The notes beneath the pieces are model-generated. The model searched no databases and was not told the DNA's origin. It saw only the letters and a program-made list of their open reading frames with translations. The position numbers and the translations under genes are program-made. From a virus (Duplodnaviria > Heunggongvirae > Uroviricota > Caudoviricetes), in IMG/VR virus record IMGVR_UViG_2695420643_000018, positions 1-4,765 of that record: DNA of 4,765 nt; one strand, given 5' to 3'. Position 1 is the stretch's first letter, and every line of letters starts with the position of its first letter. Of this stretch, positions 1 through 4,765 are shown piece by piece.

Positions 1-393
1 ATAATCCCCGGAGAAAGTCGACACACGGCTGTAAGCCACACCCGCCATCGCATACGCGCTGAACCATTCATTCACGCGCACAGACGGCCCCGCCATTACG
101 CTGAACCAGCGGTTACGCACGGAATCTTCATGCCAGCGGGTATCGCTGTAACGGGTAAGCTGGCGATTCTTGTCTCCTGCATAGCTGAATGACGTCACCA
201 GCCCCAGCGTGTCCGTGAATTCATAACGGTATTTCACGTTAATCCCGTTAAGATTATCGCTACCGGGAGCGTTCGTCCGGGCATGAAGATACCCCGCGCT
301 CAGCGTGGCCTGCTGCTCAGACGCCCATGCAGGCGCACCGGATACGGTCAGACAAATGGCTGCGGACAAAATGGCGGCATAAAGTTTACGCAT
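1..393 (-). CDS. lom: Lom outer membrane protein (Ail/Lom/PagC/OmpX family), 3'-partial; 131 N-terminal codons in window
   Basis: Hand translation of the minus strand from the ATG at 393..391 gives [131 protein letters not shown], near-identical to phage lambda Lom as I recall it. It has a Sec-type signal peptide with an AWA/S cleavage motif. A GAGAGG Shine-Dalgarno sits 5 nt upstream. The position immediately downstream of J matches lambda gene order. The frame is open to the window edge. Confidence 0.95.
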
Positions 394-460: not shown

Positions 461-3400
461 TCAGCTGATACTGATACCTGCTGTGGATTTTTTCATCACC
501 ACAACCAGCAGATCGCTGATACTTGCTGTGGGATACCAGTTATTTACCAGCCATGCTGACACCGAAAACTCCAGCGTCATGTGACCGTGACCGGCAGGCA
601 TATCAATAACGCCACTGTAAATCAGCGTATTATCCAGCGCGGTACGGTTATAAATTTCAGCACCGTTTTTCCGCACTATCAGACGGCATGAGGAGTAAAT
701 ATCAGTATGCTCTCTCTCATGTTTAGCGCCGCTGAATGCCACCGCCGGAATAACAATTTGCCGGTCAAACGGCTGATCGTCATAAACCCTGACGGTAATG
801 GTCCCTGATGGCCACCGCTCCGGTGCACGGGAATCCCGGGGGAAAGCTTTGCCCACTGTTTTAACGAGATCGCCTTCAATCTGGTTCGCGGACAGTTTTC
901 CCAGAACCCGACAGTTCTCGTTAATCGTGACGTTGTTGAGCGTCCCGGAATTCGCATTCACGTTACCGCTGATATCAGCATTTCTTGCGGTCAGCCTGCC
1001 CTCCGGCGTCAGGGAAAACGTCGGGGGATTGCCGGACGAGGTGATACTCACCGCAAACAGCCGCTTCAGGAACACGTCGTTCATGAACAGCTGATTCCCC
1101 TGCGCCACAAATAACGGAGTGCTGTTGCCGCTCTCCGGATTTATCATCGCGATACGGTCAGCCAGCAGCAGTATGTTGCTCAGTGGCTGGCCATCAGTAT
1201 CCTCAATCCCTGCACCAATCCCGGCCACATAGGGTATGCCATTTTTTGTTTTCTGTACCTTCAGCATGTAAAGTGCAGCAAGGTCATCATTTGTGTCCTT
1301 CTGCACGCGCTGTATCTGCTGTATGGTGGCGCTCTGGTCCTCCAGCGTTTTACTGACCGTCTGTGTGATTTCATTGCGGGTTTCGGTGATGGAGGTCTTC
1401 ATCTCCGCCATCTCATCCGCAAGCTGGCTGTTGTCTATCAGCTCCCACAGCCCCTGAGCCAGATGCAGTTTTCCTATTTTTTCCCGAAACAGCCCCAGAT
1501 ACCCTTCTGCATCATTGCTGGCCCGGCCACTGGCTTCCACAAAAGCAGATTTCCCCACCAGGTTGACGCTGCGCACGTAAAACCAGAAATCCTTCCCGGG
1601 CTTAATGTGCGGGCCGGATACACTCCACTGACTGCCGGTCCCCAGATAACGGGCAGAGGTTTCCACCTGAGATGTATCTGCGATTTTTGTCTCCGAAAAC
1701 CAGAACTCAAACTGTACCGTCGGGTCATACACCGCAAGACGCGGGACCGCNTTAAAAATCTCCTGACCATTGCGGGTCACTCTTAACCGGCAGGTTGAAT
1801 ACCAGTATGACTGTTGGTTATTACTGTTGAAATTCTCATGCTTACCACCGCGGAATAACACTGGCGGTATCATGACCTGCCGGTCAAACTTCTGATCATC
1901 ACTGATTCTTACCGTGATGGTGCCACTGGCATAAGTGCTCGTGCGGGGGAAAGACTTGCTGACCGTTTTGACAATATCGCCTTCAATCTGGTTGGCTGAC
2001 AGTTTCCCCTTAATCTGACAGTTCTCATTAATCGTGACGTTGTTGAGCGTCCCTGAGTTCGCATTCACACTGCCACTGATATCCGCATTTTTCGCCGTCA
2101 GTCGCCCGTCCGGCGTCAGGGAAAATGCCGGAGGATTGCCGGATGACGTGATGCTCACCGCAAACAGTCGTTTCAGGAACACGTCGTTCATGAACAGCTG
2201 ATTCCCCTGCGCCACAAATAACGGAGTGCTGTTGCCGCTCTCCGGATTTATCATCGCGATACGGTCAGCCAGCAGCAGTATGTTGCTCAGTGGCTGGCCA
2301 TCAGTATCCTCAATCCCTGCACCAATCCCGGCCACATAGGGAATGCCGTCTTTCGTTTTTTGAACCTTCAGCATGTACAGCGCAGCCAGGTCATCATTTG
2401 TGTCCTTCTGCACGCGCTGTATCTGCTGAATGGTGGCGCTCTGGTCTTCCAGCGTTTTACTGACCGTCTGTGTGATTTCATTGCGGGTTTCGGTGATGGT
2501 GGTCTTCATCTCCGCCATCTCATCCGCAAGCTGGCTGTTGTCTATCAGCTCCCATAGCCCCTGAGCCAGATGCAGTTTTCCTATTTTTTCCCGGAAAAAT
2601 TCCAGATACCCTTCACCATCATTGCCGGGCTGCCCGCTGACTTCCACAAACGCAGATTTCCCCACCAGGTTGACGCTGCGCACGTAAAACCAGAAATCCT
2701 TCCCGGGCTTAATGTGCGGGCCGGATACACTCCACTGACTGCCGGTCCCCAGATAACGGGCAGAGGTTTCCACCTGAGATGTATCTGCGATTTTTGTCTC
2801 CGAAAACCAGAACTCAAACTGTACCGTCGGGTCATACACCGCAAGACGCGGGACCGCTGTTATCTGAAAATAGCCCGGTGTCAGCTCAATCGTGGCGGGT
2901 ACCGCAGGTGCATTAATCCTGAACGTGGTGGTGGCCGGTTCCCCCTGCTGGCCATAACTGTTAATCGCCCTGACCGTCAGGGTGTATTCCCCCGGCGGCA
3001 GACCGCTGAAACGGTGCTCTGTATCCGCGGTGATGGCGGTGGTCACCAGACGGCTGTCCTGACCGCTTCCACTGGTCAGGCGCAGACTGAAGCGCACGCC
3101 CTTCACCACCCGCGGCGTGTCCCATTTCGCCTGCGCCAGATACTGGCCGTCAGCTGCACTCACCTCCACCGTCAGGTGCTGCACTGCCGGAGGGATGACG
3201 CTGTTCAGTGAGCCGGACATCGGCTCAAAGCGGGCCCCGTTATCCACAATGGCTTCTTTTTCCGGCACATGCTGCACCGCCGTGATGGCAAAGGTGCCGT
3301 CCGTGTTTTCCCGGATGGAAACACAGCGGAACAGGCGACGACGCAGTGACGGCAGGGAGAGTCCCCACACACCGTATGTCGCCACGCCATCCGGCAGGGT

Positions 3401-4765
3401 ACTGACCTGTATCCGGTCCGGCGCGGGGTGTGCGGTGATGTCCACACTCACCGGCTTACCGCTGCCGTTAATCAGGTTCACCGTCGATGTACCTGTCTCC
3501 GGCAGTGTCACCTCACGGTCCAGCGTCAGGGTGCGGCTGGCGGCATCAATGGACAGGACACGTCCGCCGGTCATGGTCCCGGCATAGTCGTTATCACAGA
3601 TTTCAATAATGTCACCGGGTGTGTGACGCAGCCCCTGTGACCCGAGCGTGAAATCCACCGTCTGCGTTTCCAGCAGTCCGGTCTTTATCACCCACAGCCC
3701 GGCACGGTGGGCCTGACCGCGACTGGTGCAGCCGAACGCATCCATCTTCAGCAGGTTGCGCCCGTAGCGCAGTATGGCTTCCGGGTCTTCCACCAGTTCC
3801 GTGGAGGTCTGCCAGCCGTTCTGCGGGTCGGTGTAATTCACCTCCACCGCCGTGTGGCGGTCCTTCAGGGCNNNNNNNNNNNNNNNNNNNNNNNNACCAC
3901 TGAAACGATGCTCTGTATCCGCAGTGATGGCGGTGGTCACNTCTGCGATTTTTGTCTCCGAAAACCAGAACTCAAACTGTACCGTCGGGTCATACACCGC
4001 AAGACGCGGGACCGCTGTTATCTGAAAATAGCCCGGTGTCAGCTCAATCGTGGCGGGTACCGCAGGTGCATTAATCCTGAACGTGGTGGTGGCCGGTTCC
4101 CCCTGCTGGCCATAACTGTTAATCGCCCTGACCGTCAGGGTGTATTCCCCCGGCGGCAGACCGCTGAAACGGTGCTCTGTATCCGCGGTGATGGCGGTGG
4201 TCACCAGACGGCTGTCCTGACCGCTTCCACTGGTCAGGCGCAGACTGAAGCGCACGCCCTTCACCACCCGCGGCGTGTCCCATTTCGCCTGCGCCAGATA
4301 CTGGCCGTCAGCTGCACTCACCTCCACCGTCAGGTGCTGCACTGCCGGAGGGATGACGCTGTTCAGTGAGCCGGACATCGGCTCAAAGCGGGCCCCGTTA
4401 TCCACAATGGCTTCTTTTTCCGGCACATGCTGCACCGCCGTGATGGCAAAGGTGCCGTCCGTGTTTTCCCGGATGGAAACACAGCGGAACAGGCGACGAC
4501 GCAGTGACGGCAGGGAGAGTCCCCACACACCGTATGTCGCCACGCCATCCGGCAGGGTACTGACCTGTATCCGGTCCGGCGCGGGGTGTGCGGTGATGTC
4601 CACACTCACCGGCTTACCGCTGCCGTTAATCAGGTTCACCGTCGATGTACCTGTCTCCGGCAGTGTCACCTCACGGTCCAGCGTCAGGGTGCGGCTGGCG
4701 GCATCAATGGACAGGACACGTCCGCCGGTCATGGTCCCGGCATAGTCGTTATCACAGATTTCAAT
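461..4765 (-). CDS. J: Host specificity protein J (lambda gpJ-like tail tip / central tail fibre), 5'-partial; reading frame as given contains two in-frame duplicated blocks and N-gaps, likely chimeric
   Basis: One continuous minus-strand frame runs from the window edge to the TGA at 463..461. The ATG at 4732 is internal (upstream codons [11 protein letters not shown] are in frame). The translation matches my recollection of lambda gpJ at [39 protein letters not shown]...[18 protein letters not shown], the FN3-like blocks ([27 protein letters not shown]), [71 protein letters not shown] and the C-terminus ...[11 protein letters not shown] (lambda ...IKKQALGISVV). Lom lies directly downstream, as in lambda. 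Confidence 0.85.
1081..1750 (-). repeat. Direct repeat (downstream copy) of the J C-terminal-half segment, variant B, leading into the intact C-terminus
   Basis: Partner of 2188..2857. It begins immediately after the single N at 1751 with codons [18 protein letters not shown], which belong to the end of the 825-bp block. Confidence 0.85.
2188..2857 (-). repeat. Direct repeat (upstream copy) of the J C-terminal-half segment, variant A
   Basis: Aligns to 1081..1750 at a constant offset of 1107 nt (= 369 codons). Several 60-nt blocks are identical, including a fully identical core 2668..2857 = 1561..1750; other blocks carry scattered substitutions. Homology continues with lower identity toward the C-terminus (about 1827..2187 vs 720..1080). 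Confidence 0.85.
2784..3607 (-). repeat. Direct repeat copy (lower) of an 825-bp J segment covering an FN3-like domain; apparently 100% identical to 3942..4765
   Basis: Comparison by eye in 60-nt blocks at a constant offset of 1158 nt (= 386 codons) found no mismatch. The same antisense ORFs recur at this offset in the supplied ORF track (3117..3587 = 4275..4745; 3205..3447 = 4363..4605). Confidence 0.9.
3872..3895. other. Run of 24 N (gap or masked bases) inside the J reading frame
   Basis: Exactly 24 undetermined bases (8 codons). Known J sequence resumes at 3871 (ALKDRH...); a 45-bp out-of-context fragment sits on the other side. Confidence 0.95.
3896..3940 (-). other. 45-bp orphan fragment of an FN3-domain coding segment, bounded by Ns
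   Basis: accactgaaacgatgctctgtatccgcagtgatggcggtggtcac differs at only 3 positions from 3006..3050 and 4164..4208 (minus-strand [15 protein letters not shown]). It is placed N-terminal to the ALKDRH segment, where my recollection of lambda gpJ has N-terminal-domain sequence (...FRYSFS) rather than an FN3 strand. Confidence 0.7.
3942..4765 (-). repeat. Direct repeat copy (upper) of the 825-bp J segment; runs to the window edge
   Basis: Identical to 2784..3607 at offset 1158. Identity starts immediately after the single N at 3941. The copy may continue beyond the window. Confidence 0.9.

What the first reader, a model, noticed from the sequence alone, without database searches (positions are those of the whole stretch)
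461..2857. Two non-identical J C-terminal (receptor-binding) halves in tandem within one reading frame
The C-terminal half of J appears twice in the same frame. The upstream copy (variant A, about 1752..2783) ends ...[13 protein letters not shown] and lacks the last ~62 codons and stop. The downstream copy (variant B, 461..1750) is complete, ending ...[11 protein letters not shown]. The copies are near-identical proximally and strongly diverged in the distal domain, which in lambda gpJ determines receptor (LamB) specificity. The offset of 1107 nt is a multiple of 3, so the frame stays open. This is either a chimera of two J alleles from different lambdoid prophages or a real duplicated host-range cassette that RecA-mediated deletion between the direct repeats could resolve into alternative J genes.
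Basis: partly seen in the sequence, partly recalled or inferred. Interest (0 to 1): 0.6.

Follow-up and report, generated by a model that had tools for sequence, protein, structure and literature searches.

The report
Scaffold misjoin of phage J alleles
The apparent doubled receptor-binding half of the phage tail-tip gene J is almost certainly an assembly artefact: separate contigs from different copies of J were strung together with N placeholders, so it is not a real duplicated gene.

Summary
The repeat is in the window as described: 461-1750 and 1752-2857 are offset by 1107 nt, identical proximally and diverged distally. Every repeat boundary falls on an N, including a second, unreported repeat (2784-3607 = 3942-4765, 824/824 identical). 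Each piece is collinear, without gaps, with an ordinary single-copy gpJ (about 1158 aa) of EHEC-type lambdoid prophages. The whole 4765-nt window collapses onto about 2763 bp of one J-lom locus in complete genomes. The A-to-B junction is contiguous in 0 of 5426 complete E. coli genomes and is absent from three large contig collections. The variant A end alone occurs in at least 119 viral contigs and always runs on into its own C-terminus. Both distal variants occur at 100% identity in one complete O157:H7 genome, in prophages 1.26 Mb apart. Four of six internal piece ends abut sites that vary between J paralogues (background 6%). The junction also cuts two Ig-like domains mid-fold. Verdict: a draft-assembly scaffold artefact of multi-copy J genes, not a host-range cassette. 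Interest is low.

The parts
1..393 (-). N-terminal 131 codons of lom (Ail/Lom outer-membrane beta-barrel protein), cut by the window edge. It is the normal downstream neighbour of J.
   Evidence: Translation [15 protein letters not shown].... Annotated as an Ail/Lom family protein under the match in complete genomes.
461..1750 (-). J part of piece S1 (S1 = 1-1750): 'variant B', the last 429 codons of gpJ plus the stop, with a complete C-terminal receptor-binding domain. It begins exactly with the 74-mer.
   Evidence: Pfam Ig_J_second (from profile position 18 of 105), Phage_Tail_Tip, and Ig_GpJ_C 1-135/135. S1 is 99.2% identical over 1750 nt to single-copy gpJ-lom in complete genomes.
1751..1751 (.). 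Single N: the scaffold join between piece S2 (variant A) and piece S1 (variant B).
1752..3871 (-). Piece S2: an internal gpJ fragment of 706 codons, running from the Phage-tail_3 domain to the middle of the 'variant A' receptor-binding domain, where the contig ends.
   Evidence: Collinear without gaps with gpJ of L001 (locus 3120-5239), ending 187 nt before the end of that gene. Ig_GpJ_C is matched only at profile positions 16-71 of 135. The best full-length match is 98.1%, in a single-copy gpJ.
3872..3895 (.). Run of 24 N: a scaffold gap.
3896..3940 (-). Piece S3: a 45-nt island from a third J allele ([15 protein letters not shown]), with 3 synonymous differences from 3002-3046 and 4160-4204.
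   Evidence: The exact S3 string is present in 9 of the fetched loci.
3941..3941 (.). Single N: the scaffold join between S4 and S3.
3942..4765 (-). Piece S4: a mid-J fragment identical to 2784-3607 (824/824), ending exactly with the 74-mer. It overlaps the start of S1 by those 74 nt.
   Evidence: S4 and S1 merged through the 74-nt overlap give a normal J C-terminal part of 2500 nt.
1677..1750 (-). 74-mer shared exactly by S1 (its 5' end), S2 (internal, 2784-2857) and S4 (its 3' end, 3942-4015). It is the stretch between two adjacent sites that vary among J paralogues.
   Evidence: family D3. In other loci the base before it is A or G and the base after it is T or C.

Best explanation
The window is a stretch of a scaffolded short-read draft assembly, most likely of an EHEC/O157-like E. 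coli carrying several lambdoid prophages. It is not a contiguous piece of DNA. The tail-tip gene J is present in several near-identical copies, so the assembler broke it into contigs at the sites where the copies differ. A scaffolder then placed four of these contigs (S4, S3, S2, S1) one after another, marking each join with N's (1, 24 and 1). S4 and S1 belong together: they overlap by 74 nt and give a normal 'variant B' J followed by lom. S2 is a contig from another J copy carrying the 'variant A' (A8/OmpC-type) receptor-binding domain. S3 is a scrap of a third copy. Both were inserted between S4 and S1 because they map to the same gene region.

Shown: the N's at every junction, the collinearity of each piece with single-copy genes, the absence of the junction elsewhere, and piece ends at paralogue-variable sites.

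Inferred: the assembler and scaffolder behaviour, and that the alleles come from one genome rather than a mixed sample.
For: (1) N's lie at 1751, 3872-3895 and 3941. Every boundary of both repeats coincides with one of them to the base.
(2) S4 equals 2784-3607 with 0 mismatches in 824 nt, while S1 and S2 differ by 13% or more distally. This fits re-use of a collapsed repeat, not an old duplication.
(3) In complete genomes and phages, the 4765-nt window maps onto about 2763 bp of one gpJ-lom locus. Each piece alone is collinear, without gaps, with a gpJ of normal length (3477 nt in L001, 3474 nt in L002).
(4) The 140-nt junction is covered at 80% or more in 0 of 5426 complete E. coli genomes, with a maximum of 56%. 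A 52-nt junction pattern with N as any base has 0 hits in genome, viral and metagenome contig collections. The variant A half alone hits at least 119 viral contigs.
(5) In all 119 loci, the variant A end continues into its own C-terminus (TCAGTCC... or GCAGTCC...) and never into the 74-mer. All 113 loci that contain the conserved proximal part have exactly one copy.
(6) Variant A distal and variant B distal are both 100% identical to NZ_AP018488.1 (O157:H7), at 1.69 Mb and 2.95 Mb, in two separate prophage gpJ genes.
(7) Four of the six internal piece ends abut a site that is polymorphic among J loci, against a background of 6% of positions. The binomial probability is about 2e-4.
(8) The junction would fuse half of an Ig_GpJ_C domain (profile position 71 of 135) to an Ig_J_second domain that starts at position 18 of 105.
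(9) Literature: EHEC genomes are 'notorious' for fragmenting in lambdoid prophages with short reads (PMC7175801; PMC10925052). Single-N insertions are treated as signs of 'construction anomalies' in scaffolds (PMC5902842).
Against: All three joins keep the J reading frame, which has a chance of about 1/27 if frame is random. A real, selected duplication would explain this more naturally. The finding was flagged because the frame is open, so selection bias probably accounts for it. The source record could not be found, so the assembly method, read depth and scaffold structure could not be inspected. A single N can also be an ambiguous base call in otherwise contiguous sequence.
Confidence: 0.93

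Rival explanations
1. Real tandem duplication: the prophage truly carries a truncated A-type C-terminal half followed in frame by a complete B-type half. This would be a host-range cassette that homologous recombination between the direct repeats could resolve. The N's would be only ambiguous base calls or assembler uncertainty at the borders of a true repeat.
For: The frame is kept across all three joins, about 1/27 by chance. Small real tandem duplications inside the J C-terminus do exist in complete genomes (107 bp in NZ_CP027390.1).
Against: A novel junction would be unique sequence and would assemble through, yet it is exactly an N. The junction is absent from 5426 complete genomes and three contig collections. 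No related locus has two halves. The junction cuts two Ig-like domains. The upstream repeat is 824/824 identical and is also bounded by an N. The piece ends sit at paralogue-variable sites. S4 keeps a 74-nt overlap with S1, but S2 has no overlap with S1.
Confidence: 0.03
2. Same artefact, different source of the alleles: the J variants come from two or more strains or phages in a mixed sample (a metagenome or contaminated culture), not from several prophages of one genome.
For: The tools cannot tell where the window comes from, and the source record was not found. S2 (best 98.1%) and S1 (best 99.2%) have no perfect full-length match in any single complete genome.
Against: One genome is sufficient. 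Complete EHEC genomes carry up to 15 places matching the window. One O157:H7 genome holds both distal variants at 100%. The mid-J allele of S2 and S4 is 100% identical in about 31 O157:H7 genomes that each have 6-9 J-like places.
Confidence: 0.1
3. The N's are masks applied to a real contiguous sequence by the data provider, hiding real bases at those positions.
For: One tool description mentions that a few stretches in a collection are masked as runs of N.
Against: Two of the three N runs are single bases sitting exactly on repeat breakpoints. The chance of that placement is about 1 in 4765 each. A one-base mask cannot create the other signatures.
Confidence: 0.01

Closest known systems
Lambda gpJ (tip attachment / host specificity protein J; PDB 8iyk, 8xcg, 8xcj) followed by lom
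   Same: The domain order is the same: Phage-tail_3, Ig_J, Ig_J_second, Phage_Tail_Tip, Ig_GpJ_C. The C-terminal half is 54-58% identical to lambda J. The gene order J-lom is the same.
   Different: The EHEC-prophage alleles carry a 28-residue insertion after the second Ig domain and different distal receptor-binding domains. In the window the gene is represented by four N-separated pieces rather than one gene.
'A8' gpJ receptor-binding domain (PDB 9wca/9wcb; Brödel et al. 2024, PMC11338833), which uses OmpC
   Same: Beyond the reported lambda/A8 fusion point, which I place at about TINENC, the last ~95 residues of variant A (window 1754-2203 is the 150-aa query) differ from chain 9wca_J at only 2 positions. 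Over all 150 aa there are a few more differences in the lambda-derived part of the chain (E = 1.7e-92).
   Different: The window's copy stops at chain residue 366 of 428, so the domain is incomplete. Receptor use was not tested here.
Fragmentation and misjoining of multi-copy lambdoid prophage genes in short-read EHEC assemblies
   Same: There are contig breaks inside prophage tail genes, paralogous copies, and N-marked joins (PMC7175801, PMC10925052, PMC5902842).
   Different: Nothing of substance. This case happens to stay in frame, so it mimics a giant J ORF.
Genuine host-range switching cassettes (Mu G segment or P1 C segment inversion; diversity-generating retroelements)
   Same: Only the idea of alternative receptor-binding ends encoded at one locus.
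   Different: The window has no invertase, no flanking inverted repeats (one search finds only 20-nt pairs at 85%) and no reverse transcriptase or template repeat. Its content is J and lom only.

Membership tests
Lambda-type tip attachment protein J (gpJ) | Characteristic domain series ending in the Ig_GpJ_C receptor-binding domain | tested here: met
   Pfam hits are above the gathering scores in S1 and S2 and in the full-length reference gpJ. PDB hits to lambda gpJ chains have E = 1e-129 or better.
Lambda-type tip attachment protein J (gpJ) | One gene of about 1130-1160 codons with a single C-terminal half, followed by lom | tested here: not met
   As written, the window has two C-terminal halves and a repeated middle, all joined by N's. 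Every reference locus has one. Removing the N-bounded insert (S3 and S2) restores a normal gene.
Scaffolding artefact of paralogous contigs | Every repeat junction coincides with an N or gap | tested here: met
   N's at 1751, 3872-3895 and 3941 match the repeat boundaries to the base.
Scaffolding artefact of paralogous contigs | Each piece is collinear with ordinary single-copy loci, and the junction is not found elsewhere | tested here: met
Scaffolding artefact of paralogous contigs | Contig ends lie at sites that differ between the repeat copies | tested here: met
   Four of six internal ends abut polymorphic sites, against a 6% background.
Scaffolding artefact of paralogous contigs | No reads span the joins, and read depth is raised on the shared segments | not testable with these tools
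   Reads and the source record are not available.
Invertible or alternative tail-fibre cassette (Mu Gin/G segment, P1 Cin/C segment) | A site-specific invertase gene and inverted repeats flanking the alternative ends | tested here: not met
   The window has only two 20-nt inverted pairs at 85%. The repeats are direct. There is no recombinase ORF; J and lom fill the window.
Diversity-generating retroelement | A reverse transcriptase plus a template/variable repeat pair near the 3' end of the target gene | tested here: not met
   No room or ORF for a reverse transcriptase in the window. Reference loci show lom and tail-fibre genes downstream, with no reverse transcriptase. An adenine-specific mismatch spectrum was not computed.
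A8-type OmpC-binding gpJ receptor-binding domain | Sequence identity to the A8 domain over its whole length | tested here: inconclusive
   Nearly identical over the part present, but the last 62 residues are missing in the window. The reference gpJ of the same type (L001) is complete.

The most novel reading that the evidence does not exclude
The source prophage really carries a truncated A8-type (OmpC) receptor-binding half fused in frame upstream of a complete B-type half. This would be a stored alternative host-range module that RecA-mediated recombination with other J copies could activate, and the N's would only mark assembler uncertainty.
Probability: 0.03. Interest if true: 0.5.

Novelty: not a real feature. 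Interest (0 to 1): 0.04.

Why it matters
If the duplication were real, an in-frame tandem of two receptor-binding modules in a lambdoid J gene would be a new way for a prophage to store host-range alternatives. The evidence says it is a scaffold artefact, so its value is practical. N-joined paralogous contigs can mimic giant in-frame genes (here a 1423-aa 'J'). Gene callers and sequence-only readers will take them at face value unless N's are checked first. The one useful biological by-product is that the source carries at least three J alleles, one with the A8/OmpC-type receptor-binding domain. That is normal for EHEC-like genomes.

Tried and rejected
(1) Finding the source record. The junction pattern and a rare 131-nt stretch were scanned in genome, viral and metagenome contig collections, and all scans returned 0 hits. 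The assembler, read depth and scaffold context therefore remain unknown.

(2) Chimerism inside S2. Its best full-length match is only 98.1%, and some 40-mers are absent from the fetched loci. However, the 3090-3250 allele is 100% identical in about 31 O157:H7 genomes. The mismatch profiles against four reference J genes look like the usual natural mosaicism of J. I found no evidence for or against within-contig chimerism and dropped the question.

(3) A real precedent for tandem J duplication in complete genomes. The only one seen was a 107-bp out-of-frame duplication, which is not comparable.

(4) A literature statement that a named scaffolder writes a single N for unresolved overlaps. I recall this for SSPACE and ABySS, but it was not found in the library. 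Only a general statement about single-N anomalies was found.

(5) The sequence of the second OmpC-type chimera '1A2', for comparison with variant B. It is not in the held supplements.

Full report
**What is in the window.** On the minus strand, one mechanical ORF of 1423 codons (461..4732) reads J-like protein throughout, but its translation contains X's. The DNA has N's at 1751 (one), 3872-3895 (24) and 3941 (one). These cut the window into four pieces:
- S1: 1-1750
- S2: 1752-3871
- S3: 3896-3940
- S4: 3942-4765

**Checking the observation.**
- Regions 461-1750 and 1752-2857 are offset by 1107 nt.
- They include an exact 206-nt run (1545-1750 = 2652-2857) and are 97-100% identical for most of 1061-1750, with dips to 0.87 at 1241-1300 and 0.78 at 1481-1540. 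Identity falls to 65-88% over 821-1060, and the ungapped register is lost below about 820.
- Variant A stops at ...[13 protein letters not shown], 62 residues short of the end. Variant B is complete.

Next to it sits a 45-nt island between two N runs. Every repeat boundary in the window therefore coincides, to the base, with an N.

**What the pieces are.** Pfam places all pieces in lambda-type tip attachment protein J.
- S2 carries Phage-tail_3, Ig_J, Ig_J_second, Phage_Tail_Tip and only profile positions 16-71 of 135 of the C-terminal receptor-binding domain Ig_GpJ_C.
- S1 starts at profile position 18 of 105 of Ig_J_second and carries a complete Ig_GpJ_C.
- Downstream of the J stop lies the start of lom (393..1), as in lambda.

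The C-terminal halves are 54-58% identical to lambda J. The distal part of variant A is nearly identical to PDB chain 9wca_J, 'A8 gpJ'. This is a natural prophage J end that was shown to use OmpC instead of LamB when grafted onto lambda (PMC11338833).

**Comparison with complete genomes.**
- The whole window hits 4864 of 5426 complete E. coli genomes, with up to 15 places per genome. In the best hits, the 4765-nt query collapses onto about 2763 bp of a single gpJ-lom locus. The same holds in Stx-converting phages.
- Each piece alone is collinear, without gaps, with one gpJ of normal length. S2 matches L001 gpJ and ends 187 nt before the end of that gene. S1 matches L002 gpJ plus lom.
- The variant A distal part and the variant B distal part are both 100% identical to one complete O157:H7 genome (NZ_AP018488.1). 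They lie in two prophage gpJ genes, at 1.69 Mb and 2.95 Mb.

**Direct test of the junction.**
- A 140-nt query across 1751 is covered at 80% or more in 0 of 5426 complete genomes. The maximum is 56%, which is the variant A side only.
- A 52-nt junction pattern with the N free has no match in the genome, viral or metagenome contig collections.
- As a control, the variant A side alone is found in at least 119 viral contigs. In all 119 it continues into its own C-terminus (TCAGTCC... or GCAGTCC...) and never into the 74-mer.
- All 113 fetched loci that contain the conserved proximal part have exactly one copy of it.

**Signature of graph-based assembly.**
- S4 ends, and S1 begins, with the same 74-mer. 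Merging them through it gives a normal variant B J. S2 has no such overlap with S1.
- In other loci, the base just before the 74-mer is A or G and the base just after it is T or C. The base after the S2 end is T or G, and the base before the S2 start is C or T.
- So four of the six internal piece ends abut a site that varies between J copies, against 6% of positions under the same test. The binomial probability is about 2e-4.
- This is what is expected when an assembler breaks contigs where paralogues diverge.
- The 0-mismatch identity of S4 with S2 over 824 nt, next to 13% or more divergence in the distal part, fits re-use of a collapsed repeat better than an old duplication.
- S3 differs from the S2 and S4 version at three synonymous sites, and the exact S3 string is present in 9 of the fetched loci. 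At least three J alleles therefore contributed.

**Context from the literature.** EHEC O157 genomes are described as notorious for fragmenting in their homologous lambdoid prophages with short reads (PMC7175801; PMC10925052). Single-N insertions have been used as flags of scaffold construction anomalies (PMC5902842). From my own recollection, not confirmed in the library, some scaffolders write a single N when two contigs are predicted to overlap but no overlap is found.

**What a real fusion would look like.** It would join half of an Ig-like receptor-binding domain to a second Ig-like domain lacking its first 17 profile positions. That is an unlikely product for a functional host-range device. 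The window has no invertase, no meaningful inverted repeats and no reverse transcriptase, so it does not resemble known host-range switching systems.

**The one point in favour of a real structure.** All three joins keep the J frame, which is about 1/27 by chance. The finding was flagged because the frame is open, so selection bias is the likely reason. I record it as unexplained but minor.

**Verdict.** This is a scaffold misjoin of contigs from several J paralogues. They most likely come from several lambdoid prophages of one EHEC-like genome, less likely from a mixed sample. Confidence is about 0.93. It is not a real feature, and interest is low. The source record could not be located, so read-level confirmation is still needed.

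Noticed in passing
window 2784-3607 and 3942-4765; 3896-3940: A second, unreported repeat: 824 nt duplicated with 0 mismatches at an offset of 1158. It is bounded by a single N at 3941. Beside it, a 45-nt island from a third J allele lies between that N and a 24-N run.
   Followed up: yes
window 1751, 3872-3895, 3941: All three N-joins preserve the J reading frame (offsets 1107 and 1158 are multiples of 3, and S3 is in its native frame). This is about 1/27 by chance and is probably a selection effect of how the finding was flagged, but it is not explained.
   Followed up: partly
L003:5105-5318 (NZ_CP027390.1, E. coli 2015C-4944; also NZ_CP074890.1): A perfect head-to-tail 107-bp tandem duplication inside the gpJ receptor-binding domain of complete genomes. 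It is out of frame, and RefSeq annotates J as two overlapping CDS. It is either a genuine J-inactivating duplication or a long-read assembly error.
   Followed up: partly
window 1754-2203 (minus strand): The variant A distal domain is nearly identical to PDB 9wca 'A8 gpJ'. Over the last ~95 residues there are 2 substitutions, and a few more lie upstream in the lambda-derived part of the chain. This is the prophage-derived domain used to retarget lambda particles to OmpC (PMC11338833).
   Followed up: yes
window 2587-2665 (minus strand; protein [17 protein letters not shown] versus [17 protein letters not shown] in S1): A short mosaic patch in S2 differs from all four reference gpJ genes (14 mismatches in 100 nt in each). 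Its 40-mers are absent from all 123 fetched loci. It is probably a recombination patch from a rarer J allele.
   Followed up: partly
window 3090-3250: This mid-J allele (shared by S2 and S4) is 100% identical only in about 31 complete genomes; the ten listed are nine O157:H7 Z-series bovine isolates from the UK and strain 9000. This hints at the lineage of the source strain.
   Followed up: partly
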